From assembly GCA_947629205.1 (NCBI GenBank), contig CANRCV010000004.1, forward strand, positions 441 through 64,440: DNA of 64,000 nucleotides, given 5' to 3'. Of this stretch, positions 15,084 to 56,662 are shown one piece after another (positions within the stretch are counted from its first letter, which is position 1; each line of letters starts with the position of its first letter). The notes beneath the pieces are model-generated. The model saw only the letters and a list, made by a program, of their open reading frames with translations. It searched no databases and was not told the origin of the DNA. The DNA is from an uncultured Bacilli bacterium. GTDB taxonomy: Bacteria; Bacillota_I; Bacilli_A; RF39; UBA660. The position numbers and the translations under genes are program-made.

Positions 15084-16268
15084 TTATTCATCAATATGTT
15101 TGTCATACTCTATATCTGCTATTTCATAGTGTTGATTATTACCAATAAAACTTAAAATCTTGGTAGCAATCCATCCTACTAAAGCTAGAGCAAAGAAATA
15201 CACAAAACCAAAAATAGTAAATGTTGGAGCAGAATCGGTGATAAGTCCAATAATGGATGCTCCAGCACTCATACTAGTAACAATGGTTAGGCTATCAATA
15301 GATTTATTGGTAACATCACTTTTTAAACTAGAAAATAATTTTTGAGCAGATGACACGTACGTTTGCGTCATATCCCATAAATATTTAATATAATCTAAAG
15401 TATCACGTAATGTTTCAAAACGATATCCAGAAATAGCTAAAAATTCTGTTAATTCTTTATCACTCTTAGCAATTCTTTCACGAGTAGAAATATACGTACC
15501 CATTTGATTAATTCTTCCATCGATTAAGTTAATTGTTTTGGCATATCCTTCTAGTTTACTATTAAACTTAACGATATCTGCCCCCTTAACATGAGCATTT
15601 TCTTTAACTTTATCAATTTTTTCCCAAATAATACGATGAAGATTTAAATAGCGATGCATTTGGCCTTTAAATTCACGTATAAAAATTTGTTCTTCAATAT
15701 ATTTTTCGATTTTATCTAAAGAAGACTTTTTATTATTAATAAAATAATATTTATCTCCTCTTACAACATCATAGCGATCATTATTAAATTCAAAATATTT
15801 TTGTTTTTCAGTTCTCGAAAGTAAATCCGCAATATTTTCTTTCGTTGCTTTATCAATCACAATAAAATAGGGATAAACAGTTTCAATATGAGCAAGTTCT
15901 TTAGGAACTGGAGCTCCTAAACTAAATAGATAATTAAAAGCTGGAGATAGTTTATTTTCATAATAATCAGTAACTTTTTCTAAATCTGCAAATAAAGTAT
16001 TTTCACTAACATGATGATTATTCAAACAAATTAAACCATCTTCATAAATTTTAACGGATATATCATAAGCAGTCGTAAACTCAATAAATTCTTCTCCATC
16101 TACTCCATAATCAATTTTACCAATCGCTAATTCTTTACGATAATTTAATAATTTATCATGATCCAAATCTAATTTTGTTCTAGCTTCTCTTAAAAAATCA
16201 TAGATTTCTGTTAATTGTAACATGGTTCTTTGAAACCAACCACCTATATATACATTTGATATTTTCAT
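15084..16268 (-). CDS. Hypothetical protein with C-terminal pair of TM helices
   Basis: 394 aa; large soluble N-domain then two TM segments; immediately downstream of GNAT gene, probably co-transcribed. Confidence 0.5.
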   Translation of the reverse strand: MKISNVYIGGWFQRTMLQLTEIYDFLREARTKLDLDHDKLLNYRKELAIGKIDYGVDGEEFIEFTTAYDISVKIYEDGLICLNNHHVSENTLFADLEKVTDYYENKLSPAFNYLFSLGAPVPKELAHIETVYPYFIVIDKATKENIADLLSRTEKQKYFEFNNDRYDVVRGDKYYFINNKKSSLDKIEKYIEEQIFIREFKGQMHRYLNLHRIIWEKIDKVKENAHVKGADIVKFNSKLEGYAKTINLIDGRINQMGTYISTRERIAKSDKELTEFLAISGYRFETLRDTLDYIKYLWDMTQTYVSSAQKLFSSLKSDVTNKSIDSLTIVTSMSAGASIIGLITDSAPTFTIFGFVYFFALALVGWIATKILSFIGNNQHYEIADIEYDKHIDE

Positions 16269-16284
16269 ACATCTAATCTCCTTT

Positions 16285-16719
16285 TTAAATATCTATACTA
16301 AAGAATGTAGAATCATCAGGAACAAATCCAAATTTTTTATAACAGGTATGAGCAGGAATACGAAAATTTCTACTCCATAGTTTCATAGCAGTACAATTAT
16401 GATTCTTACATATATTTTGTACGACTTCTAACATTTTGGTTGCAATGTGATGCTTACGATACTCCGGTTTTACACAAACATGATTTAAGATAGCATAGGT
16501 ATTCATATCTTCAAAAATTGTCGGTATAATAGCAATTCTTGTATGAGCAATAATTTTATCATCTAATTTTCCTACTACATATATTTGATTACGATCTTTG
16601 TATTCTTGAAAAAGTTCTATTGCTTCTTCATACTTTGTTTCTTCTTCAAAACATTCATTACATAAATCTACAATTCCTCGTATATCAGCAACTGTTGCAA
16701 TTTGAAATTCGACATTCAT
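16285..16719 (-). CDS. GNAT-family N-acetyltransferase
   Basis: 144 aa; acetyl-CoA binding-like segment (HHIATKMLEVV); RBS GAGGTG 9 nt upstream. Confidence 0.7.
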   Translation of the reverse strand: MNVEFQIATVADIRGIVDLCNECFEEETKYEEAIELFQEYKDRNQIYVVGKLDDKIIAHTRIAIIPTIFEDMNTYAILNHVCVKPEYRKHHIATKMLEVVQNICKNHNCTAMKLWSRNFRIPAHTCYKKFGFVPDDSTFFSIDI

Positions 16720-16740: not shown

Positions 16741-16772
16741 TTTAAGTTTATAACCCCCCCCCCGTGTGTCAA
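16741..16772 (-). promoter_or_regulatory. Putative sigmaA promoter of GNAT gene with poly(G) in the spacer
   Basis: Minus strand TTGACA(16772..16767)-CAC-G10-T-TATAAA(16752..16747); spacer 14 nt in the sequenced state, 17 nt if the tract were G13. Confidence 0.45.
16754..16763 (-). repeat. Homopolymeric G10 tract (C10 on + strand) in promoter spacer
   Basis: Ten consecutive C on + strand in an otherwise ~28% GC region. Confidence 0.9.
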
Positions 16773-23472: not shown

Positions 23473-24909
23473 ATGCAAGAAGAACTTTTAAAACGTTTAA
23501 AACAAGAATTTTCTAAAAATACCGATTTTATTGTTAAAAAAATTAAAACCAAACATTTTAAAACGATTTATGTTGTCTATTTAGAAACCGTTACCGGTAG
23601 TGATAAAGTAAATGATTATATTTTAAAAGGATTAACCAAAATTAATAACTTAAAAAGTGTTAAGAAAAAGGATATTGCTAGTATTATTCCCGGGCCAAAT
23701 ACAGTAGAAGTAACAAAACCTGACCAAATGGAATACTATTTAACCAATGGATTTACTTTAGTTTTAACGAGTGAAGAAATTCTTGCTTTTGAAACCAAAG
23801 CCGATATCAATCGAAGCGTTAGTGTACCAGAGGTGCAAAAATCGATTTATGGACCAAGTGATGCTTTTACCGAAAACATTCAAATAAACTTAGGTCTTTT
23901 AAAACGTCGTATTAAATCCAGTCATTTAAAAAGTGATGATTTGAATATGGGAAGAAAAACCAATACCAAGGTCCAAATTTTATACTTTGATGATATAACA
24001 GACATGCAGATTGTGAATAGTATAAAAGATAAACTTTCTAAAATTGATGTGGATGGAATCATTGATGCTGGAAATATTGCCAATATTTTATGTGAAGATG
24101 AAGCAACACCCTTTCCTACAATTTCGCAAAGTGAAAGACCTGATGTAGTGGCTACAGCTCTTCTAGAAGGAAAAGTATGTATAATGGTGGATACTTCTCC
24201 TTTTGTTTTAATCTTGCCGGCTTTTTTTGCTGATTTTATAAATCCGGTAGTAGATAACTACAATCGAAATGTCAATGTAAATTTTTTAAAAGTTTTACGT
24301 TTTGCATCTTTCTTTCTAACCATGATGATTCCCGGTGTTTATATTGCTTTAGTCAACTACAATATGGAAACGATTCCAACAAGCTTGCTTGTCAATTTTG
24401 CGATGCAAAATGCTGAGGTCCCCTTCCCGACCATTATCGAAGCCATTGTTATGATTATCGTTTGTGAAATATTAAGAGAAAGTGATTTACGTTTTCCCAG
24501 TAATTATGGAAGTGCAATATCGATACTTGGAGCTTTAGTTTTAGGAGAAGCCGCTGTTGCAGCAGGAATCGTAAGTCCCATTATGATTATCATTATTGCC
24601 TTTACATTTATAACCAGTTTAATATTTACGGAACTCGAAGTCATCAACGCCATTCGGTATTTTCGTTTTATTTTTTTAATCCTGGCCGCTTTATATGGTC
24701 TTTATGGAATTGCTCTTGGGCTTATCTACTTTAGCATTCATATTACGAGTGTTTCCACAGCTGGAAAACCATACTACTATCCAATTGTTCCTTTTGATTT
24801 TACTTATATTAAAAAAACTCTATTTAAAGTAAAATACGTAAACGATACCAAACGTAGTAAATTACTCGCTCGTAAAAATCTAATAAAGAAAAAGGTGAAG
24901 CAACAATGA
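23473..24909 (+). CDS. gerAA: Spore germinant receptor A subunit (GerAA/GerKA family)
   Basis: 478 aa; soluble N-domain plus C-terminal 5-6 TM region typical of GerA family. Confidence 0.8.
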   Translation: MQEELLKRLKQEFSKNTDFIVKKIKTKHFKTIYVVYLETVTGSDKVNDYILKGLTKINNLKSVKKKDIASIIPGPNTVEVTKPDQMEYYLTNGFTLVLTSEEILAFETKADINRSVSVPEVQKSIYGPSDAFTENIQINLGLLKRRIKSSHLKSDDLNMGRKTNTKVQILYFDDITDMQIVNSIKDKLSKIDVDGIIDAGNIANILCEDEATPFPTISQSERPDVVATALLEGKVCIMVDTSPFVLILPAFFADFINPVVDNYNRNVNVNFLKVLRFASFFLTMMIPGVYIALVNYNMETIPTSLLVNFAMQNAEVPFPTIIEAIVMIIVCEILRESDLRFPSNYGSAISILGALVLGEAAVAAGIVSPIMIIIIAFTFITSLIFTELEVINAIRYFRFIFLILAALYGLYGIALGLIYFSIHITSVSTAGKPYYYPIVPFDFTYIKKTLFKVKYVNDTKRSKLLARKNLIKKKVKQQ

Positions 24910-27035: not shown

Positions 27036-28943
27036 TTATTTGTTTGGAGAAAGGACAATACGGAAGCCATTGTTGTTATGTGCTTCACCACCCATGTTAA
27101 CAAAGGCAAAGACACCAGCACCTGCACCATTTTCAACGGCACCGCCACGAACGAACCAAGGATAGGCACAAATAAACCAGGATTCATCTGCATACCAAAA
27201 GTTAATATTTCTTGGTTGAACTTTATCACTATAAATTTTTTGAACAAATGGTCCTAATTCTCCAGTTGCATCTCCTAGTATTCTTCGATTATATTGATTT
27301 CGATTTGTTCCATAATCATAAATATCATAATATTTAAAATAATCTGTTTCTTCACTAGTTTTAAATGGAATATCTTCTAAAGTAAAGCCACTTTCATAAA
27401 ATGTAAAACCACTATCATCTGTATTTTTCATTGCTCCCATTACATATTCCCAGGCACCTCCACTCATGTCATATACTCCAGTATAATTTTTAGTAGTACT
27501 TGCAACACTACTATCTGGATTTGTATAATTTATTGTATTATTTCCGTCTTGTAATGGTAGTTTATTCTCATAGTTATTGTAAGCATTAAATCCAACAATT
27601 GATTCTTCTGTTGCTGCATATCCTGTTACAAATCCAAGATTATTATTGTTTCTTACCTCTTTACATACTCCATTTTCACAAGTTCCATATTTAGAATGTG
27701 ATAAATATGCAACTGCTCCCCATTCTGTATTTTTCATTAAATGACTATCTAATTCTCTTTGATAATTATAACTCGTATTAAAAGCATTTTTAATATTTAT
27801 ATATCTCCAACTATATACATTTGGCTTTATTACTACTTTTGTTTTATCCACTACATTTGTTTTTTCTTTATTACTACTATTAAATGTAGAAGCATCTGCA
27901 CCTTTATATCCAGTTTCAAACTTTCCTACCCAAAATCCATTTGTATCAAATGCAGTAAATGCTGATGGTGTCATCCATTTATCTACTGCACATTCTCCAT
28001 TCTCTCCACTTGGTGGTGTTATACATTCTATTGTATTATCTACTGTATCATAGATTCCAAATTCTATTTCTATTTCTTGCGATTTTTCTTCATATTCATC
28101 TTGTGAAAGGCTATTATATTCTCCCATATTAAAGATTTTGTATTTATATTTTGGTATCCATACAAAATAACTTTCTATATTCTCTTCTTTTATAGTTCCA
28201 TCTTCTTCTATTATTCCATCATCTTTTAATATGACTGCATTCGCCCACTCTTTCTTAGAATAATCATACCATTCTTCTTCTATATTTGCTTTGGTTACTG
28301 TTCCATCATCTTCATTTATTTTTACTGGTATTAAATTATCTTTTATTACTGGATCTGCTCCATTTAATGTATCATCTGTATATACTTTTGCTAGTGTGTT
28401 TAATGTAGCATTGACTACTACCTTACTTTCAAAGATTTTATTCATGGATTCTTCATCTTCTACTGTTACATGTTCATCCATCCATAGTTTTAAACTATAT
28501 TCTTTACTTTCTTTTCCATTTAGTATTCCTGTTGCTAGTTCATATCCTTTTTTATATTTTTCTAATGTTGTTTCTTTTAAACTATTTAATATTCTTTTGG
28601 TATTACTATTTAATTGTACTGCTATATATTGACTATCTAAAGTTGTATTATTTGTTATACCTAAGTTTACTGTATAGTTAATACTTGTATCACATGTATT
28701 TTCTACTTTAAAAGTAAATGGTGTTAATTCTTTTGCTTCTTCATCTGTTATTGGGTATGCTTTTTCTAAATGAATAGCATCACTTTCATTTTCAAGAATC
28801 AAACTTAAACAATCACTTTGAATTTGATTCATACCTTGTTGTTCTGCAGTAGACGTCCACCATGCAAAACTAGAACCTATCATTACAATTACTGTAAAGA
28901 GCATTCCTACTACTAAATATTTTTTCTTTTTACTTTTTTCCAT
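27036..28943 (-). CDS. Secreted TasA/camelysin-like N-terminal module fused to C-terminal FGE-sulfatase (SUMF1-like) domain
   Basis: 635 aa; signal anchor then SSFAWWTSTAEQ (SipW-type motif, cf. TasA GGTWAAFND); N-domain paralogous to 53369..54088; C-terminal YDMSGGAWEYV...RGGAV...NNNGFRIVL matches FGE-sulfatase domain ends (YDMSGNVWEW...RGGSW...NIGFRCV). Confidence 0.7.
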   Translation of the reverse strand: MEKSKKKKYLVVGMLFTVIVMIGSSFAWWTSTAEQQGMNQIQSDCLSLILENESDAIHLEKAYPITDEEAKELTPFTFKVENTCDTSINYTVNLGITNNTTLDSQYIAVQLNSNTKRILNSLKETTLEKYKKGYELATGILNGKESKEYSLKLWMDEHVTVEDEESMNKIFESKVVVNATLNTLAKVYTDDTLNGADPVIKDNLIPVKINEDDGTVTKANIEEEWYDYSKKEWANAVILKDDGIIEEDGTIKEENIESYFVWIPKYKYKIFNMGEYNSLSQDEYEEKSQEIEIEFGIYDTVDNTIECITPPSGENGECAVDKWMTPSAFTAFDTNGFWVGKFETGYKGADASTFNSSNKEKTNVVDKTKVVIKPNVYSWRYINIKNAFNTSYNYQRELDSHLMKNTEWGAVAYLSHSKYGTCENGVCKEVRNNNNLGFVTGYAATEESIVGFNAYNNYENKLPLQDGNNTINYTNPDSSVASTTKNYTGVYDMSGGAWEYVMGAMKNTDDSGFTFYESGFTLEDIPFKTSEETDYFKYYDIYDYGTNRNQYNRRILGDATGELGPFVQKIYSDKVQPRNINFWYADESWFICAYPWFVRGGAVENGAGAGVFAFVNMGGEAHNNNGFRIVLSPNK

Positions 28944-36786: not shown

Positions 36787-37917
36787 TTATTTTCCTAAAT
36801 ATGTAATTCTTGCATATCCATTTCCAGAATTTCCAACCATTGTATTTTGTGTTCCATCATGTTTGGGCATAACCTCTTTCCCGGATTTCATTTCCGTATT
36901 TGTAAAAACAAGTCCGGAATAATGAATAGAATCTCCAGTATGTTGAATGTTATTTTCAACAGATTCTTGTTTTATGGCATTACATCCCTCATATCCAGAA
37001 ATAAAGGATGAACCACCTGAGGCTGAGGTTGCATTTGTAATTCCTTCACTACGACCACCATAATAGCCTCCTCCAGCACCAGCAACACCACAATCGCCAT
37101 TACCAACACTACCTGATCCAGCACATTGGCCATCTCCAACCCCACTTTGTCCTTTACCAAAAGCATAACCAGTTGTTTGATTGATTGCTGATTTTGTTCC
37201 AACTAAATCAGCAGATAAGCCACCTCCTGCTCCTGGAGCGTAACTCCAGCTAGCTCCTCCACCACCTGCTGCAACCATAATTCTAGATTTTAAACTAGCA
37301 AAAGAGTCCCACAAACCATTTACAAGACGAATGTCGGTGGCTCCTCCTCCACCACCACTACTTTCATCATCTGCTTTATCAGGAACACCATTACCACCAC
37401 CATTATATCCACCAAGAGATTCTACTCTTTTACTAGCATTTGCACCAGCACCACCTACATAAAGATATAATGTTTGCTCTTTTTGTAAGCTTATTTCACC
37501 TTTGGTATATGCACCATTTCCTCCATCATTATAAGACACACCTTGATAAAGAGATTTTCCACCTTCAGCTCCCCATAATTCTATTTTATATTTTCCTTGT
37601 AATGGTACTGTAAATGATTGTTCACTTCCTGTATAATCAAATGTCCATTCTGTTCCTTCTTTTATAATAAAATTAATGCTACATGTCGTTGGACTCTTTT
37701 TTAGACTTGATACAAATAATCCCCATCTCTCTGTATCCCATTCTCCAATGGCATCATTATCACATTCTACAATTATATCTCCATAGTTTCCTTTTTGTGG
37801 AACGGTATTTGTTGTTTCTCCATTTATTTTCAAAGCAATGATATTTACATCGTTTTTTAAACTAAAATCAGGTACAACGCCTTTTATAACATCAAAACTT
37901 TTTTCTGTTTTATACAT
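36787..37917 (-). CDS. Phase-variable surface protein with ALK/LTK-like glycine-rich domain; annotated ORF is the out-of-frame body of a longer gene
   Basis: 376 aa ORF; no RBS before its Met; reading frame open upstream through the G10 tract; Gly-rich region GGGYYGGRSEGITNATSASGGSSFISG resembles ALK GRD GGGGYIGGNAASNND...DGVSFIS (Pfam Gly_rich). Confidence 0.7.
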   Translation of the reverse strand: MYKTEKSFDVIKGVVPDFSLKNDVNIIALKINGETTNTVPQKGNYGDIIVECDNDAIGEWDTERWGLFVSSLKKSPTTCSINFIIKEGTEWTFDYTGSEQSFTVPLQGKYKIELWGAEGGKSLYQGVSYNDGGNGAYTKGEISLQKEQTLYLYVGGAGANASKRVESLGGYNGGGNGVPDKADDESSGGGGGATDIRLVNGLWDSFASLKSRIMVAAGGGGASWSYAPGAGGGLSADLVGTKSAINQTTGYAFGKGQSGVGDGQCAGSGSVGNGDCGVAGAGGGYYGGRSEGITNATSASGGSSFISGYEGCNAIKQESVENNIQHTGDSIHYSGLVFTNTEMKSGKEVMPKHDGTQNTMVGNSGNGYARITYLGK

Positions 37918-38035
37918 AGCAAAAGTATGGTATAGTGTTATACCACCAATTAATAAAATAATTCCTATAATTGTACTAATTAAAATTTGTTTTTGTTTTT
38001 TATTTTTGATAAATCTTTCTAATCTAGGTTTGTGT

Positions 38036-38098
38036 TTATCTAATATACCCCCCCCCCAGACTAGACTCTAGAGTTGGGAGGTTTTTATTTTTCTTCAT
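38036..38098 (-). other. Leader ORF ending just after the G10 tract (OFF-state product of the phase-variable gene)
   Basis: GGAGGAAG RBS + ATG 38098; encodes MKKNKNLPTLESSLGGGYIR-stop; a 9-G allele would fuse it in frame to ...ILDKHKPRLERFIKNKKQKQILISTIIGIILLIGGITLYHTFA-MYKTEKSF (TM anchor). Confidence 0.7.
38048..38057 (-). repeat. Homopolymeric G10 tract (C10 on + strand) inside 5' coding region
   Basis: Ten consecutive C at 38048..38057; frame analysis shows G9 (or G12) gives an in-frame full-length protein. Confidence 0.9.
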
Positions 38099-38123
38099 TT
38101 TTTCTTCCTCCTACTATACTTTT

Positions 38124-38152
38124 ATTATAAACGAATTTCTTATTCTTGAAAA
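38124..38152 (-). promoter_or_regulatory. SigmaA-type promoter of phase-variable gene copy A
   Basis: Minus strand TTTTCA(38152..38147)-17 nt-TATAAT(38129..38124); identical in copy B. Confidence 0.5.
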
Positions 38153-38181
38153 GTTTTTTTCATAGTAATCCCTATTCTTCC

Positions 38182-38229
38182 TTTGACAATTAAACTGAAA
38201 TTTCATCATTTTTCAGTTTAATTGTCAAA
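38182..38229. repeat. Perfect palindromic element (19-bp stem, 10-nt loop), copy 2; likely terminator of upstream paralog
   Basis: tttgacaattaaactgaaa-tttcatcatt-tttcagtttaattgtcaaa; core and loop shared with 22081..22118. Confidence 0.75.
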
Positions 38230-38234
38230 TACTT

Positions 38235-39371
38235 TTACTGATTTTCATTTATAAATATTCTATAAGGATTTTGTTGAGTTCCATTACCACTTTGAAATAA
38301 TACTTTTGATTTAAGATAGAAAGACGGATAAATTTTAGTATTACTATAATATCCAGCATGAAAGTTCCATAATTGGCCTGTTTCATCCATGTACCATGCA
38401 TCTGGATTCCCAGAGATCGTTGTTGTCAAAAACCATTGTTTGTTCTTGCTAAATATCCAATTATTTATTACACATGAGCTATTATCACTCTCATTATTCC
38501 ATAGTTTTAAAGATTGTTGCATACATTGTGTTCTAGTTTTTAAAGCTGATCCGCTTGTTGCATATCCATAATCACTTGCATATATTAATCCAATTTTTGT
38601 ATTAGTTGATTTAGAATAACCATCACGAACACTATTTCCACGTTCTGCTTTATAAAATTCAGTTACGGTACTTAAATTGGTTTCCCCTAAATACCATTTT
38701 GCAATATCAATATACGTTTGATATGATTTTATACTACCCCAAAATTCTTCATTTAAAATATTTGTATTTAATTCGCTACTAATCCAATTATTTTGTTGTA
38801 ATTCTGGATGTCCATACCAAGAAGCTTCACTGTAGTTAACATATTTAATTAATTTTACTCTATCTTCATAAATTCCATTCTCACTTGATTGAGTAGGTAT
38901 TATACCTATAATTCGATATAAATTGTTTTCACTACATTCTCCATTTTCTTCTAAACATACATAGTTATTAGGATTAGCACCTATATATCGATAGTCCGTT
39001 TTAGCACTTTCACCAGTTTGATCAGTAGCTTCGTGTGTTTGCACTATTAATCCACTTGCTCCATCTGCAACATTTGTTACTTTTGATTTTAAATAAGTAG
39101 AAAATATTGGAGCATTAAAATCAATGGTACATTTAATTCTACTTTGATTATTGCTGTTTTTTAATTTTAAAGACCATGTTGTATCATCCCAATCTGCTTC
39201 TACTCCACCATCACATTTTATATCTTTCTTAGTAAATCCTTCATTTTGATTAGGAAAAGAAACATCACTTGTTTTTACACCATTTATACTAAAAGCAAGT
39301 GTTACATCTCCACTACTAAAATCAGGCACAACACCTTTTATAACATTAAAAGACTTTTCCATTTTATACAT
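38235..39371 (-). CDS. Phase-variable surface protein paralog (divergent C-terminal domain); annotated ORF is out-of-frame body
   Basis: 378 aa; first ~85 aa homologous to 36787..37917 product (MYK.EKSF.VIKGVVPDFS...EWD..W); C-terminal Trp/Tyr-rich domain ending GNGTQQNPYRI; same upstream architecture. Confidence 0.7.
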   Translation of the reverse strand: MYKMEKSFNVIKGVVPDFSSGDVTLAFSINGVKTSDVSFPNQNEGFTKKDIKCDGGVEADWDDTTWSLKLKNSNNQSRIKCTIDFNAPIFSTYLKSKVTNVADGASGLIVQTHEATDQTGESAKTDYRYIGANPNNYVCLEENGECSENNLYRIIGIIPTQSSENGIYEDRVKLIKYVNYSEASWYGHPELQQNNWISSELNTNILNEEFWGSIKSYQTYIDIAKWYLGETNLSTVTEFYKAERGNSVRDGYSKSTNTKIGLIYASDYGYATSGSALKTRTQCMQQSLKLWNNESDNSSCVINNWIFSKNKQWFLTTTISGNPDAWYMDETGQLWNFHAGYYSNTKIYPSFYLKSKVLFQSGNGTQQNPYRIFINENQ

Positions 39372-39486
39372 AGCAAAAGTGCGGTATAAAGTTATACCAC
39401 CAATTAGTACTATGATTCCTACTATTGTACTAATTAAAATTTGTTTTTGTTTTTTATTTTTAATAAATCTTTCTAATCTAGGTTTA

Positions 39487-39549
39487 TTATTTAATATACC
39501 CCCCCCCCAGACTAGATTTGCTGGTTGGGAGGTTTTTATTTTTCTTCAT
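39487..39549 (-). other. Leader ORF ending after G10 tract, copy B
   Basis: ATG 39549; MKKNKNLPTSKSSLGGGYIK-stop; G9 allele fuses to ...ILNNKPRLERFIKNKKQKQILISTIVGIIVLIGGITLYRTFA-MYKMEKSF. Confidence 0.7.
39499..39508 (-). repeat. Homopolymeric G10 tract (C10 on + strand) inside 5' coding region, copy B
   Basis: Ten consecutive C at 39499..39508; same -1 requirement for in-frame fusion as copy A. Confidence 0.9.
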
Positions 39550-39574
39550 TTTTTCTTCCTCCTACTATATTTTT

Positions 39575-39603
39575 ATTATAAACGAATTTCTTATTCTTGA
39601 AAA
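39575..39603 (-). promoter_or_regulatory. SigmaA-type promoter of phase-variable gene copy B
   Basis: TTTTCA(39603..39598)-17 nt-TATAAT(39580..39575), within a block nearly identical to copy A. Confidence 0.5.
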
Positions 39604-39655
39604 GTATCTTTTTTCATATTAATCCCTTTTAAGATATCATCGAATATCAAAATAA

Positions 39656-47097: not shown

Positions 47098-47568
47098 TTA
47101 ACTAGAGCTACTATTAAACATATTACCGCTATTTACACTACTTTCACCATTACAGTTTTCAGAAGCCGTTGTTCCTTCTACTGCACTATCTCCATTTGCT
47201 CCTTTTTCTCCAGATATAGTATATTTTCCATTACTAATCCAGAATGTATAAGTAGGATTTTTACCATTGTTAGGGTTTGATACTAAAACACTTCCGGTAT
47301 AGTCATCCTTTTTTCCTTTTGTATACAATCCTTCATTATATAAATATTCTACAGAAAAACAAGCATTTCCTGTTATCATATGCAATTGATAAGCAGCCAT
47401 TGCAGACTCGATTAATTCATTACCTTCTGTTGCTAAAACATCTCTTTTTCCTTTTTCCAAAAAAGAAAAGACATTTTTAGAAGCCATTAAAAGAATAACG
47501 GCTAAAATAACGATTACTGCTAATAATTCAATTAAAGTAAAACCATTTTTATTCTTAACTATCTTCAT
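47098..47568 (-). CDS. comGC: Type IV (pseudo)pilin, ComGC-like major pseudopilin
   Basis: Start set to MKIVKNKNG|FTLIELLAVIVILAVI (class III prepilin signal, Glu at +5) with AAGGA RBS; 156 aa. Confidence 0.75.
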   Translation of the reverse strand: MKIVKNKNGFTLIELLAVIVILAVILLMASKNVFSFLEKGKRDVLATEGNELIESAMAAYQLHMITGNACFSVEYLYNEGLYTKGKKDDYTGSVLVSNPNNGKNPTYTFWISNGKYTISGEKGANGDSAVEGTTASENCNGESSVNSGNMFNSSSS

Positions 47569-47637
47569 ACAAGTTACCATCCTTGTCTATTATCAATTTC
47601 ATTATACAATAGATAAAAGAAGGTAGTCAATCAAAAA

Positions 47638-47861: not shown

Positions 47862-48221
47862 TTAATCCTCAAATATTTTATTAATTGGTCTAGGATTTAC
47901 TGTATCTACTGTTTTTGCAACCCCACTCGATGATCCTTTACTCGTTAATTCTTCGACAATTCCTAAAGCTTTTTGAGCAGTAGCGATATGTTCTTGAATA
48001 CTGGATAGATCAATATTTTTTATTTTATCCGTTATACTTTTAAAATTATAATCTGTTTTTGTCTTATTGGTTTTTAAATAATCTTGCCAAGCACTTTCAT
48101 TTTCACCATAAATATCATAAATTTCATATAGTTTTTGCCATGTCGTTTCTCCATTTTTAATATAATGAACAAGTTCTGGATGTGCTTTAGCAAATGTTTT
48201 AAATTGGTCTTTTAAAGCCAT
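47862..48221 (-). CDS. ylbD: YlbD-like putative spore coat protein
   Basis: 119 aa; FAKAHPELVHYIKNGETTWQKLYE...VNPRPINK parallels YlbD FVKEHPKLIKEVRSGKATWQELYE...KRPNHP. Confidence 0.55.
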   Translation of the reverse strand: MALKDQFKTFAKAHPELVHYIKNGETTWQKLYEIYDIYGENESAWQDYLKTNKTKTDYNFKSITDKIKNIDLSSIQEHIATAQKALGIVEELTSKGSSSGVAKTVDTVNPRPINKIFED

Positions 48222-55195: not shown

Positions 55196-56104
55196 ATGAA
55201 AAAAAGTTTAAAAGAACAAGAAATTATTTTTATTATTTTACTTTTTATTGTCCTTTTATTTAAAAAGAATATGGTATTTAAAACTTGTATTTTACAAGGT
55301 TGTTTTATTTTTTTTGAAAACGTTTTTCCTTTTTTATTTCCTATGTTTTTAATAAATGATTTATTAATGAATTATCATTTTGATGTTTTTATTACCTATA
55401 CAATTCATCCCTTATTAAAAAAACTATTTCATTTTTCTCCTATTGTATCTTCTATATTTATTTTATCACTATTTTCAGGAACTCCTACCAATGCCTATCT
55501 TATTACCAATTTAGTAAAACAAAAAGCCCTTAGTAAGAAAGATGCATGTATCACATTAAGTTATTCTTTCTTTCTAAATCCTTTATTTTTATATAGTACT
55601 TTTTTAATGTTATTTCAAAGTACTTGGATCAGTATAAAATTAATTGGTATTACTTATGGTCTTAATTTTTTATTTGCTTTTTTCTTTCGTTTTTACCCTT
55701 ATGAACAAACAACCATTCAAAAAAGAGAAAGTCAAAAATTTTCTCTTTGTTTAACCAACAGTTTAAAAAAAACAAGTAATACTTTACTACTCGTTTTAGG
55801 TACTATACTCTTTTATCTTTTCGTATGTGAAGCCTTTTCCATTCTTTTCAAAAATTCAATTGTTAATTGTATAGGAAATGGAATTTTAGAAGCAACGGGT
55901 GGTTTATTCAAATTAAAAACTTTAAACTTTTCGATGAAAGGAAAAGAAATTCTTGCTTTATTTTTTGTTTCTTTTGGAGGATTTAGTATTCATAGTCAAA
56001 TTAAAAATATTATTGATGAAGAAGAAATTTCATATCGTCCTTTTTTAATCGTTCGATGTCTTCATGCTTTTTTAGCCGCACTGATTGGCTTGATAATCCC
56101 CTAA
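55196..56104 (+). CDS. Integral membrane protein, possibly YlbJ-like (nucleoside-recognition/Gate domain)
   Basis: 302 aa, ~8 TM; neighbours ylbL as ylbJ does in Bacillus; weak call. Confidence 0.4.
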   Translation: MKKSLKEQEIIFIILLFIVLLFKKNMVFKTCILQGCFIFFENVFPFLFPMFLINDLLMNYHFDVFITYTIHPLLKKLFHFSPIVSSIFILSLFSGTPTNAYLITNLVKQKALSKKDACITLSYSFFLNPLFLYSTFLMLFQSTWISIKLIGITYGLNFLFAFFFRFYPYEQTTIQKRESQKFSLCLTNSLKKTSNTLLLVLGTILFYLFVCEAFSILFKNSIVNCIGNGILEATGGLFKLKTLNFSMKGKEILALFFVSFGGFSIHSQIKNIIDEEEISYRPFLIVRCLHAFLAALIGLIIP

Positions 56105-56662
56105 AAATTGTTTTTCTAAAAAAGGATTTTCTCCTTGTAAATCTTTTTTCTCTCCTAGATAGAAAAATTCTAAGTCATCAATTGTATTTTTCGATTTACT
56201 ACTTACAATAACGGGAATTGTAAACTTGACATAGTAAAAATCTGCTGTATCTTCTACTGTATTTGAATACGTATAAGAAACACATTGGATACCAAATTTA
56301 GTCTTCGCTGTTTGTTTTTCCAAATTCCATTTTTCTGTTCCATTTTTATTTTGATACGTTAAAGTGGATTCTGTTACTAAAAGAGTAGCTGTTTCATTAT
56401 TTTGATAGGTAAATGTTAATTGTAATTGATTTTGATTACTTCCCGTATCTTGGATACCAATTAATTTTTTTTCTAAGAAATCTTGTTCAATATTTTTTAA
56501 AATAACCGCTCTTGTTTGTTGATTATTGCGATTATAATCAATATTATTTTCACTATTACGAATATCTACCAATAAACGAAATAAAAACATAACAATAATG
56601 GTAATTAAAGCAATACTAATAATTAATTCAGTTAGTGTAAATCCTTTTTGATTCAAATTCAT
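56072..56662 (-). CDS. Type IV pseudopilin (minor, ComGD/GspH-like)
   Basis: 196 aa; MNLNQKG|FTLTELIISIALITIIV class III signal; 33-nt convergent overlap with + gene. Confidence 0.65.
   Translation of the reverse strand: MNLNQKGFTLTELIISIALITIIVMFLFRLLVDIRNSENNIDYNRNNQQTRAVILKNIEQDFLEKKLIGIQDTGSNQNQLQLTFTYQNNETATLLVTESTLTYQNKNGTEKWNLEKQTAKTKFGIQCVSYTYSNTVEDTADFYYVKFTIPVIVSSKSKNTIDDLEFFYLGEKKDLQGENPFLEKQFLGDYQANQCG

What the first reader, a model, noticed from the sequence alone, without database searches (positions are those of the whole stretch)
36787..39620. Tandem paralog cassette: conserved 5' module on divergent ectodomains, suggesting a variable-surface-protein family
The two genes lie about 1.45 kb apart as direct repeats. 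They share an almost identical ~240-bp 5' block covering the promoter, RBS, leader, G tract and TM anchor, plus a homologous first ~85 aa of ectodomain (VIKGVVPDFS...I.CD...EWD..W.L). Downstream they carry completely different C-terminal domains: a Gly-rich domain in one, and a Trp/Tyr-rich domain ending GNGTQQNPYRI in the other. The identical repeats could mediate gene conversion or deletion, giving a second route to variation. This resembles mycoplasma Vlp/Vsa-style cassette families rather than typical Firmicute surface proteins. The full-length products would be type II (signal-anchor) membrane proteins, not LPXTG or lipoproteins.
Basis: partly seen in the sequence, partly recalled or inferred. 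Interest (0 to 1): 0.8.

Follow-up and report, generated by a model that had tools for sequence, protein, structure and literature searches.

The report
Poly-G switched modular surface-protein gene pair
Two neighbouring genes of an uncultured gut Bacilli bacterium share one promoter-leader-signal module, each interrupted by a run of ten G that puts the gene out of frame, and carry different binding "heads"; they belong to a large, undescribed gene family that looks built for random on/off switching of surface proteins.

Summary
Two minus-strand genes 1451-1454 bp apart share a ~310-bp 5' block (~89% identical; 46 bp is the longest exact stretch) and a homologous small beta domain, then diverge completely.

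Each gene has its own promoter, ribosome-binding site and ATG. A G10 run in the leader stops translation after 20 codons; G9 or G12 gives 436/437-aa proteins.

Related gut MAGs hold up to 37 copies per genome, at least 14 head types, frequent tandem arrays, and tracts of G8-G12. Consensus is G10/out of frame in 42 of 57 tract-bearing copies. In-frame alleles exist elsewhere.

Within a genome the 5' module is homogenised whatever the head.

Best reading: poly-G slipped-strand phase variation of a modular secreted or anchored protein family, a known kind of switch in an undescribed family.

New detail: a conserved CCUCCC-stem-G-tract hairpin in the leader, function unknown.

The Vlp/Vsa analogy holds only loosely. 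The host has a cell wall, and the "signal anchor" may be a cleavable signal peptide.

The parts
38235..39549 (-). Gene B, full coding region as read with G9 (437 aa). As assembled (G10) it splits into a 20-codon leader ORF (39549..39487) and the annotated ORF 38235..39371.
   Evidence: exact ORF is in the protein database as P0001
36787..38098 (-). Gene A, full coding region as read with G9 (436 aa). As assembled (G10) it splits into a 20-codon leader ORF (38098..38036) and the annotated ORF 36787..37917.
   Evidence: P0264 is the exact ORF
39575..39603 (-). Promoter-like site of gene B: TTTTCA-17 nt-TATAAT (10 of 12 matches), inside the conserved block
38124..38152 (-). Promoter-like site of gene A: TTTTCA-17 nt-TATAAT (10 of 12 matches), inside the conserved block
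39499..39508 (-). G10 homopolymer in the leader of gene B. In frame at G9 or G12; stop codons follow in both wrong frames.
38048..38057 (-). G10 homopolymer in the leader of gene A. In frame at G9 or G12; stop codons follow in both wrong frames.
39499..39532 (-). Predicted leader hairpin of gene B: CCUCCC (39532-39527) pairs with six G of the tract, with an inner stem CCAG../..CUGG
38048..38081 (-). Predicted leader hairpin of gene A: CCUCCC (38081-38076) pairs with the G tract. In the longer-context fold, CCUCC pairs instead with the ribosome-binding site GGAGG.
39375..39440 (-). Hydrophobic segment of B (ILISTIVGIIVLIGGITLYRTF) after a Lys-rich stretch and ending in TFA|MY. Either a signal anchor or a cleavable signal peptide.
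   Evidence: translation; motif conservation
37921..37986 (-). Hydrophobic segment of A (ILISTIIGIILLIGGITLYHTF) ending in TFA|MY. Either a signal anchor or a cleavable signal peptide.
39108..39323 (-). Shared small all-beta domain of B, with conserved P, C, W, W, C, F
   Evidence: alignment; AlphaFold model strands 18-86, pLDDT about 85-97
37660..37869 (-). Shared small all-beta domain of A
   Evidence: model strands 27-84
38238..39059 (-). Head of B: C-type-lectin-like fold, closest to the N-terminal domain of T. ramosa IgA protease
36796..37599 (-). Head of A: ALK/LTK-type glycine-rich domain
38183..38228 (-). Perfect 18-bp inverted repeat with a 10-nt loop just after the stop codon of B. 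Probably the terminator that separates the two transcription units; it has no T run.
   Evidence: read from the sequence

Best explanation
The locus holds two independently transcribed members of a large family of modular exported proteins from uncultured gut Bacilli.

Each gene has five parts:
- a sigma-70-like promoter, a strong ribosome-binding site and an ATG;
- a short Lys-rich leader that contains a poly-G tract;
- a hydrophobic signal or anchor segment;
- a small conserved beta domain;
- a variable head. B has a C-type-lectin-like head and A a glycine-rich ALK-type head. Both folds serve as binding modules elsewhere.

At G10 the start codon is out of frame with the body of the gene, and translation stops after 20 codons. 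Loss of one G or gain of two G, by slipped-strand mispairing during replication, restores the frame and switches that gene on. Each paralog therefore flips on and off at random and independently, so a population displays changing combinations of heads. In this assembly both genes read off.

The shared 5' block is kept similar within a genome by recombination or gene conversion. It is probably also the seam at which heads are exchanged and tandem copies arise.

Shown directly: the anatomy, the frame logic, the head folds, the family size, tract-length polymorphism, in-frame alleles, and within-genome homogenisation.

Inferred: that switching happens at useful rates, that the products reach the cell surface, and that the heads bind host, glycan or phage ligands.
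For: - Frame logic: G10 gives a 20-aa product; G9 or G12 gives 436/437 aa. Stop codons follow the tract in both wrong frames.
- Tracts are not background. Apart from the three G10 tracts, the window has no G or C run of 7 or more. In 1.16 Mb of loci plus window, nearly all of the about 80 G runs of 8 or more sit in this leader or in promoter spacers; the few exceptions are contig-end artefacts and one unexplained run.
- Tract polymorphism across 57 tract-bearing copies: G10 out of frame (in frame at G9) in 42; G11 in 5; G8 in 3; G10 in frame in 2; frame unresolved in 6.
- In-frame alleles exist. L184 has G9. L185 has G10 made in frame by a spacer 1 nt shorter. P0055, the 66% ortholog of A, is in frame, as are P0125, P0129 and P0237. 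P0167 reads GGGG, consistent with G12, and P0247 has a shorter tract.
- Out-of-frame copies are not decaying: 39 of 42 keep open frames of 230-586 aa in AT-rich DNA.
- The family is real. The N-module profile finds 888 cluster representatives among 1.84 billion proteins. One MAG holds 37 copies. Heads fall into at least 14 types, and tandem arrays are common.
- Head folds.
- Homogenisation of the 5' module: 0.83 identity (same MAG, different head) against 0.59 (different MAG, same head).
- The locus is chromosomal, lying between an HD-domain gene and dnaE/polC with ftsK nearby. No relatives are found in viral contigs.
Against: - No read-level data, so tract-length heterogeneity within one population is not shown.
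- The consensus is overwhelmingly out of frame at one length: 42 of the 51 copies with an assignable frame are G10 needing G9. A simple unbiased switch would not obviously give this. It needs a mutational mode at G10 or selection against expression, and it leaves room for rescue at the RNA level.
- The conserved hairpin has no role in the classical model.
- The rest of this genome could not be examined, so further copies in this organism are inferred from near-identical 5' modules in other database contigs.
- Surface localisation and ligand binding are untested.
Confidence: 0.74

Rival explanations
1. Programmed recoding rather than DNA switching, or in addition to it. G10 would be the selected wild-type state. 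The conserved CCUCCC-stem-G-tract hairpin in the nascent RNA would drive loss of one G during transcription, or a +1 ribosomal slip on the all-G run. A fixed fraction of product would then be read in frame from 'off' alleles.
For: - 42 of the 51 tract-bearing copies with an assignable frame, from several species and independent assemblies, are exactly one G too long.
- The hairpin is predicted in most leaders at -18 to -21 kcal/mol. It is more stable than when only its inner 12-18 nt are shuffled: mean z -1.9 over 23 distinct leaders.
- Inner stems differ between lineages but stay complementary: AGA/UCU, AUUG/CAAU, CAGG/CCUG.
- CCTCCC is fixed at synonymous sites. All 44 distinct leaders matching the exact CTCCCAAC motif use CTC for Leu, a codon that makes up 1.4% of Leu codons in this window.
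- The required direction (minus one nucleotide in the RNA, or +1 for the ribosome) matches stem-loop-dependent transcriptional slippage in Roseiflexus IS630, which yields transcripts lacking one nucleotide (PMC5009743).
Against: - DNA-level length variants (G8, G9, G11, G12 and shorter) and in-frame alleles do exist. That is the signature of a mutable tract, not of a fixed recoding site.
- Leaders of one mouse MAG lack CCTCCC yet keep the G10 tract.
- Known efficient polymerase slippage involves A/T runs, or T5C5 with an adjacent hairpin, not a hairpin that contains the run itself.
- No expression data.
Confidence: 0.12
2. Assembly or sequencing miscount at homopolymers. The true tracts would be G9 and both genes ordinary, constitutively in-frame genes.
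For: - Homopolymers are error-prone.
- Both tracts, and most tracts in relatives, are off by the same +1.
Against: - The same G10 appears in MAGs from independent projects and pipelines.
- G9 is assembled correctly where it makes sense. Examples are the in-frame L184 and promoter spacers giving exactly 17 nt in L035 and L053.
- G8 and G11 are also seen.
- In-frame G10 alleles exist where the context differs by 1 nt (L185 and L045).
Confidence: 0.05
3. Decaying duplicates: two frameshifted pseudogenes left over from a tandem duplication.
For: Both are out of frame as assembled, and annotators called only the truncated ORFs (P0001, P0264).
Against: - The only lesion is in the tract. The bodies stay open for 376-378 codons in 28.5% GC DNA.
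- The same design recurs in dozens of copies and several species, with intact bodies.
- Promoter, ribosome-binding site and leader are the best-conserved part.
Confidence: 0.03
4. Cassette recombination of the Vsa, pilE/pilS or Vlp kind as the main route of variation, with the 5' block serving as an expression site that captures different 3' cassettes.
For: - The 5' module is homogenised within genomes irrespective of head.
- Exact stretches of 35-46 bp are long enough for homologous recombination.
- Tandem arrays are common.
Against: - Every copy has its own promoter, ribosome-binding site, ATG and tract, so none is silent for lack of an expression site.
- There are no flanking inverted repeats and no recombinase gene next to the pair.
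- Synonymous divergence between A and B shows no recent exchange here.
Confidence: 0.04

Closest known systems
Campylobacter jejuni poly-G contingency genes (the 'phasome')
   Same: - G8-G11 tracts in a low-GC genome.
- Tracts sit near the 5' end of genes for surface structures.
- Frame-dependent on/off states, and tract length polymorphic between strains.
(Own knowledge; PMC6321876 listed.)
   Different: - The Campylobacter tracts sit in unrelated genes without a shared leader.
- Here a single conserved leader cassette (ribosome-binding site, ATG, Lys-rich codons, CCTCCC, stem, G tract, stops) is reused on dozens of paralogs and on at least two protein families.
- The host is a Gram-positive-type gut commensal.
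Neisseria Opa proteins (own knowledge)
   Same: - Multigene family in which each copy has its own promoter.
- The repeat lies in the leader or signal-coding region, so each copy switches independently and most are off at any time.
- Paralogs recombine.
   Different: - Opa uses CTCTT pentamer repeats, not a homopolymer.
- Opa proteins are one beta-barrel fold with variable loops.
- Here whole head domains of unrelated folds are exchanged.
Mycoplasma hyorhinis Vlp and M. pulmonis Vsa families (own knowledge)
   Same: Families of surface proteins with a conserved 5' end (promoter plus signal) and divergent 3' ends, arranged in clusters.
   Different: - Vlp and Vsa are lipoproteins with C-terminal tandem repeats.
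- Vlp switches through a poly-A tract in the promoter spacer.
- Vsa switches by site-specific inversion into one expression site.
- None of these features is present here, and the host has a cell wall.
N-terminal C-type-lectin-like domain of Thomasclavelia ramosa IgA protease (PDB 9QA6; PMC12237041)
   Different: - In IgAse the domain precedes a metzincin catalytic domain and is not needed for the minimal active enzyme.
- Here it is the terminal head of a short protein with no protease domain.
- No sequence-level match to any PDB chain.
ALK/LTK glycine-rich domain (PF12810) and phage tail-fibre relatives
   Different: - In ALK the domain binds a cytokine in a receptor kinase.
- Bacterial copies have no known ligand.
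- In other bacteria the same head sits on type IV pilin-like N-termini (P0281, P0286), not on this module.
Stem-loop-dependent transcriptional slippage of Roseiflexus IS630 (PMC5009743)
   Same: A GC-rich nascent-RNA hairpin next to a slippery run yields transcripts one nucleotide shorter, which restores the frame. The leader here has a hairpin at the run and needs exactly minus one nucleotide.
   Different: - There the hairpin is 5'-adjacent to a T5C5 motif.
- Here the run itself forms the 3' arm of the hairpin.
- Nothing has been tested experimentally for this leader.

Membership tests
Simple-sequence-repeat phase-variable ('contingency') genes | A hypermutable repeat tract within the reading frame or the promoter | tested here: met
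   G10 at 38048-38057 and 39499-39508. Apart from the three G10 tracts the window has no G or C run of 7 or more.
Simple-sequence-repeat phase-variable ('contingency') genes | A change in tract length toggles between a full-length and a truncated product | tested here: met
   In silico, G9 or G12 gives 436/437 aa, while G8, G10 and G11 give 18-20 aa.
Simple-sequence-repeat phase-variable ('contingency') genes | Tract length is polymorphic among alleles, paralogs or strains, and includes in-frame states | tested here: met
   G8, G9, G10, G11 and G12-equivalent tracts are seen. In-frame alleles are L184, L185, P0055, P0125, P0129, P0237 and P0167. Other strains of this same species could not be examined.
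Simple-sequence-repeat phase-variable ('contingency') genes | Reversible, high-frequency switching observed within a population | not testable with these tools
   Needs reads or cultures.
Mycoplasma Vlp-type variable lipoproteins | Lipoprotein signal with a lipobox cysteine | tested here: not met
   No Cys at or near the end of the hydrophobic segment (LIGGITLY[HR]TFAMY).
Mycoplasma Vlp-type variable lipoproteins | Poly-A tract in the promoter spacer, and C-terminal tandem repeats | tested here: not met
   The tract is poly-G inside the coding leader. No tandem repeats score above 38 in the genes.
Mycoplasma Vsa-type inversion systems | Site-specific inversion sites flanking a single expression site, plus a recombinase | tested here: not met
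   Only weak inverted repeats, at most 86% over 22 nt. The neighbouring genes are an HD-domain gene, dnaE, polC and ftsK. Each copy has its own promoter.
ALK_LTK_GRD (PF12810) | Match to the family profile above the curated cut-off, and the GRD fold | tested here: met
C-type-lectin-like domain fold (IgAse N-terminal domain type) | Structural match to solved C-type-lectin-like domains | tested here: met
LPXTG sortase substrates | C-terminal LPXTG motif followed by a hydrophobic segment and a basic tail | tested here: not met
   The C-termini are ...GNGYARITYLGK and ...NPYRIFINENQ.
TasA/camelysin-type secreted fibre proteins (PF12389) | Profile match to Peptidase_M73/TasA | tested here: not met
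   No PF12389 hit for A or B at E up to 1. Only a distant relative of the B head (P0074) carries it. The resemblance of the TFA|MY(K/E)E site to TasA/CalY signal-cleavage sites rests on memory and is a lead only.
Programmed transcriptional slippage or ribosomal frameshift sites | Out-of-frame state conserved across orthologs, with a conserved stimulatory structure | tested here: inconclusive
   42 of the 51 copies with an assignable frame share the +1 state, and a hairpin is predicted with supporting substitutions. However, the tract length varies and in-frame DNA alleles exist.

The most novel reading that the evidence does not exclude
The conserved leader (ribosome-binding site, ATG, CCUCCC, short stem, G10, AU-rich stops) may be a dedicated recoding or regulatory RNA element shared by several gene families of this clade. 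G10 would be the selected state. A hairpin that uses the G run as its 3' arm would make RNA polymerase drop one G, or make the ribosome slip +1. Every 'off' copy would then be expressed at a set low level, on top of slower DNA-level switching.
Probability: 0.13. Interest if true: 0.85.

Novelty: new variant of a known kind. Interest (0 to 1): 0.62.

Why it matters
Homopolymer-driven phase variation is textbook for Campylobacter, Neisseria, Haemophilus and mycoplasmas. I found no description of it for the abundant, uncultured small-genome Bacilli of animal guts (literature searches).

Here a single reusable leader cassette switches dozens of paralogs per genome. The paralogs carry heads with folds used elsewhere for ligand or receptor binding: a lectin-like domain shared with an IgA protease, and an ALK/phage-fibre glycine-rich domain. 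That implies strong, fluctuating selection on the cell surface from IgA, phages or host glycans. It also gives a concrete handle on how these organisms persist.

The practical consequence is that gene callers truncate or split most family members. Many database entries start at the internal Met, so these proteins are systematically mis-annotated as cytoplasmic fragments.

The conserved hairpin around the tract and the near-universal G10 state pose a testable question: can RNA-level slippage and DNA-level switching be combined in one element?

Tried and rejected
- DNA pattern scan of JGI metagenome contigs for the leader (CCTCCCAAC-N12-20-TG8+). It gave 104 stretches, all chance matches in unrelated, mostly GC-rich contigs, and none from the family. 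Strain-level tract variation could therefore not be measured.
- The look-up of encoding contigs failed for the window's own proteins and for the closest relatives P0055, P0129, P0237 and P0247. Their DNA and genomes could not be inspected, and cluster look-ups gave no names or accessions.
- The window's genome is not among the GTDB species representatives, so 'more copies in this genome' could not be checked directly.
- Rfam has no family for the leader; the only hit was a chance snoRNA match.
- A PDB sequence search with the B-family profile found nothing.
- PADLOC gave no defence-system match. PHROGs gave only unknown-function phage families for the glycine-rich domain. IMG/VR holds no relatives of the N-module. 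A prophage or defence origin was therefore rejected.
- A fixed-register covariation count for the hairpin was set up and then abandoned, because the inner stems use different registers in different lineages. The shuffle test was used instead.
- The afdb50 fold library was unavailable.
- Literature searches found no description of this family or of poly-G switching in this clade.
- A mycoplasma-like, wall-less host was rejected after finding a PASTA kinase, PBP2B and spore-related genes.


Full report
**1. What is in the sequence**

Both genes lie on the minus strand. Gene B is upstream: annotated ORF 38235..39371, true ATG at 39549. Gene A is downstream: annotated ORF 36787..37917, true ATG at 38098.

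Direct repeats of 194 nt (85%) and 125 nt (92%) are spaced 1451-1454 bp apart. A 41-mer spanning the ribosome-binding site, ATG and leader is exact in both copies and absent elsewhere in the window.

A global alignment places the conserved block at about -75 to +237 relative to the ATG, at roughly 89% identity. Similarity then falls to 50-70% over a small domain and to noise after that. The longest exact stretches are 46, 38 and 35 bp. Within the conserved coding part, 52 of 57 residues are identical, but 11 of those 52 codons differ synonymously. The copies are therefore not a very recent duplication.

Each copy has a promoter-like TTTTCA-17-TATAAT, an AGGAGG ribosome-binding site and an ATG. 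A perfect 18-bp inverted repeat (38183-38228) follows the stop codon of B. These are two separate transcription units.

**2. The G tracts**

Both leaders contain exactly G10. Apart from a third G10 tract at 16754-16763, the 28.5% GC window has no G or C run of 7 or more.

With G10 the leader frame reads MKKNKNLPT..SSLGGGYI[RK] and stops. G9 or G12 joins it to the main frame and gives 436 aa (A) and 437 aa (B). G8 and G11 also stop at once.

In the G10 state the main frame has no ATG, GTG or TTG upstream of the hydrophobic segment. Only a signal-less product from the internal Met would be possible, and that Met has no ribosome-binding site (read).

**3. The proteins**

The in-frame products have four parts: a Lys-rich stretch, a hydrophobic segment of about 22 residues ending in TFA|MY, a conserved small beta domain, and a head.

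Both folds are used elsewhere as binding modules.

Neither protein has an LPXTG motif, a lipobox or tandem repeats.

The most conserved motif of the whole family is [ST][FY]A followed by [LMF]Y[EK] at the end of the hydrophobic segment, which looks like a signal-peptidase site. The 15-24 residues after it are conserved but disordered in both models. From memory, this resembles the TasA/CalY cleavage region. That is a lead, not a test.

**4. The family**

A profile of the N-terminal module finds 888 cluster representatives among 1.84 billion proteins. All those I could place come from uncultured gut Bacilli or 'Tenericutes' MAGs from rabbit and mouse. The window's own genome is not in the reference set. 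Its ParE has only 'MAG: Bacilli bacterium' relatives.

The 79 fetched loci plus the window hold 97 copies. One MAG holds 37. Tandem pairs and triples are common.

The parts after the module fall into at least 14 unrelated head types. The B type has 25 members, a large unknown type 23, and the A type 9. One type matches DUF285/LRR.

About 40% of copies lack the leader and tract. These start directly at MKL[EQ]KF with their own promoter.

Database proteins with 78-88% identity to the first 78 residues of A and B carry at least five other heads.

**5. Evidence for switching**

Among 57 tract-bearing copies:
- 42 are G10 and need G9;
- 5 are G11;
- 3 are G8;
- 2 are G10 and already in frame;
- 6 could not be assigned a frame.

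In-frame alleles exist elsewhere:
- L184 has G9.
- L185 has G10 rescued by a spacer 1 nt shorter.
- P0055, the 66% ortholog of A, is in frame, as are P0125, P0129 and P0237.
- P0167 reads GGGG, and P0247 has a shorter tract.

The 76% ortholog of A, P0265, is called from the internal Met and is therefore probably out of frame.

Out-of-frame copies keep long open bodies, so they are not pseudogenes.

In 1.16 Mb of loci plus window, nearly all G runs of 8 or more lie in one of three places: in this leader before family genes; in the same leader before a second family with SYAWW-type N-termini; or in promoter spacers that give 17-18 nt spacing. The few exceptions are contig-end artefacts and one unexplained run. 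The clade therefore uses poly-G as a general switch.

**6. Why the consensus is nearly always G10 and off**

Three readings are possible:
- The modal tract length at mutational equilibrium is G10, and the frames have evolved so that the mode is off.
- Expression is usually selected against.
- G10 alleles are partly rescued at the RNA level.

I cannot separate these without reads.

**7. A conserved hairpin**

Most leaders carry CCTCCCAAC 14-18 nt before the tract.

All 44 distinct leaders matching the exact CTCCCAAC motif use the Leu codon CTC, which makes up 1.4% of Leu codons in this window. In 42 of them the preceding codon ends in C. This points to a constraint at the nucleotide level.

Folding pairs CCUCCC with six G of the tract. 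An inner stem differs between lineages but stays complementary: AGA/UCU, AUUG/CAAU, CAGG/CCUG.

Shuffling only the inner 12-18 nt gives a mean z of -1.9 over 23 distinct leaders.

CCUCC is also complementary to the ribosome-binding site. In gene A the longer-context fold prefers that pairing.

Rfam has no such family. The function is unknown. The direction of the needed correction (minus one nucleotide, or +1 for the ribosome) matches hairpin-dependent transcriptional slippage known from Roseiflexus IS630. I give that reading about 0.12-0.13.

**8. Concerted evolution**

The leader-plus-signal part is 83% identical between paralogs of one MAG that carry different heads. Between MAGs with the same head it is only 59% identical. 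The beta domain shows no such effect (0.38 against 0.37).

The boundary coincides with the end of the A/B conserved block. Exchange is not recent in this pair.

**9. Context and rejected origins**

The pair sits between an HD-domain phosphohydrolase gene and dnaE/polC, with ftsK, efp and parC/parE nearby.

The host has a PASTA kinase, PBP2B, and GerXA-like and YlbD-like genes. It is a walled, probably spore-forming Firmicute, not a mycoplasma-like cell.

There is no link to phage or defence systems.

**10. Verdict**

It is a new variant of a known kind. The conserved hairpin and the fixed G10 state remain unexplained and are worth testing.

Noticed in passing
window 16754-16763 (minus strand), with ORFs 16288-16719 and 15087-16268: A third G10 tract lies in the spacer of a promoter-like site (TTGACA-16 nt-TAAACT, 10 of 12 matches). 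It sits 34 nt upstream of a GNAT acetyltransferase gene, which is followed by a 394-aa ORF with no Pfam match. This looks like a promoter-type poly-G switch. Relatives have G9 or G10 in spacers that give exactly 17-18 nt to a TATAAT (L035:4971, L051:2596, L053).
   Followed up: partly
L011:12414, L019:15376, L028:2526, L031:9374, L048:3745, L024:12533: The same leader cassette (CCTCCCAAC, stem, G8-G10) also precedes a different family of exported proteins. Their N-termini read ...SYAWW/SYAYI...INxVxSxC..., which is TasA-like. The cassette is therefore shared between gene families.
   Followed up: partly
L185:48-120 compared with L048:5656: One allele keeps G10 but is in frame, because the spacer between CCCAAC and the tract is 1 nt shorter (GGAATAACC instead of GGAAATAACC). 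A compensating indel outside the tract appears to lock the gene on.
   Followed up: partly
window 47101-47580 and 56075-56662 (minus strand): Two ORFs carry the prepilin N-terminal methylation motif (PF07963), so a type IV pilin or pseudopilin system is encoded nearby. In other bacteria the glycine-rich head of gene A is fused to exactly such pilin N-termini (P0281, P0286).
   Followed up: no
window 23473-24906 (+) and 47865-48221 (-): A GerXA-like spore germination protein and a YlbD-like coat protein suggest that this small-genome uncultured Bacilli lineage forms spores.
   Followed up: no
window 38183-38228: A perfect 18-bp inverted repeat with a 10-nt loop lies between the two genes. It is AT-rich and has no T run, so the terminator scan missed it.
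   Followed up: no
window 27039-28943 (minus strand): A 635-aa ORF has no NCBIfam or Pfam match at the thresholds used.
   Followed up: no
L075:1-60: The contig end is made of long C and G runs (C16, then G10 to G17). This is most likely a sequencing or assembly artefact at a contig end and was not counted as a tract.
   Followed up: no
L027:10001, L029:10001, L050:10001, L065:17133: Some leaders have interrupted or decayed tracts, for example GGGGAGGGGG, GGGGTGGTGG and GGGGGTGGGG. Such tracts should no longer slip, so these copies may be locked alleles.
   Followed up: no
database proteins P0001, P0026, P0075, P0264, P0265 and many hits: Gene callers start many family members at the internal Met after the signal segment, or at odd start codons inside the leader. 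A large share of database entries for this family are therefore N-terminally truncated artefacts of the out-of-frame tract.
   Followed up: partly
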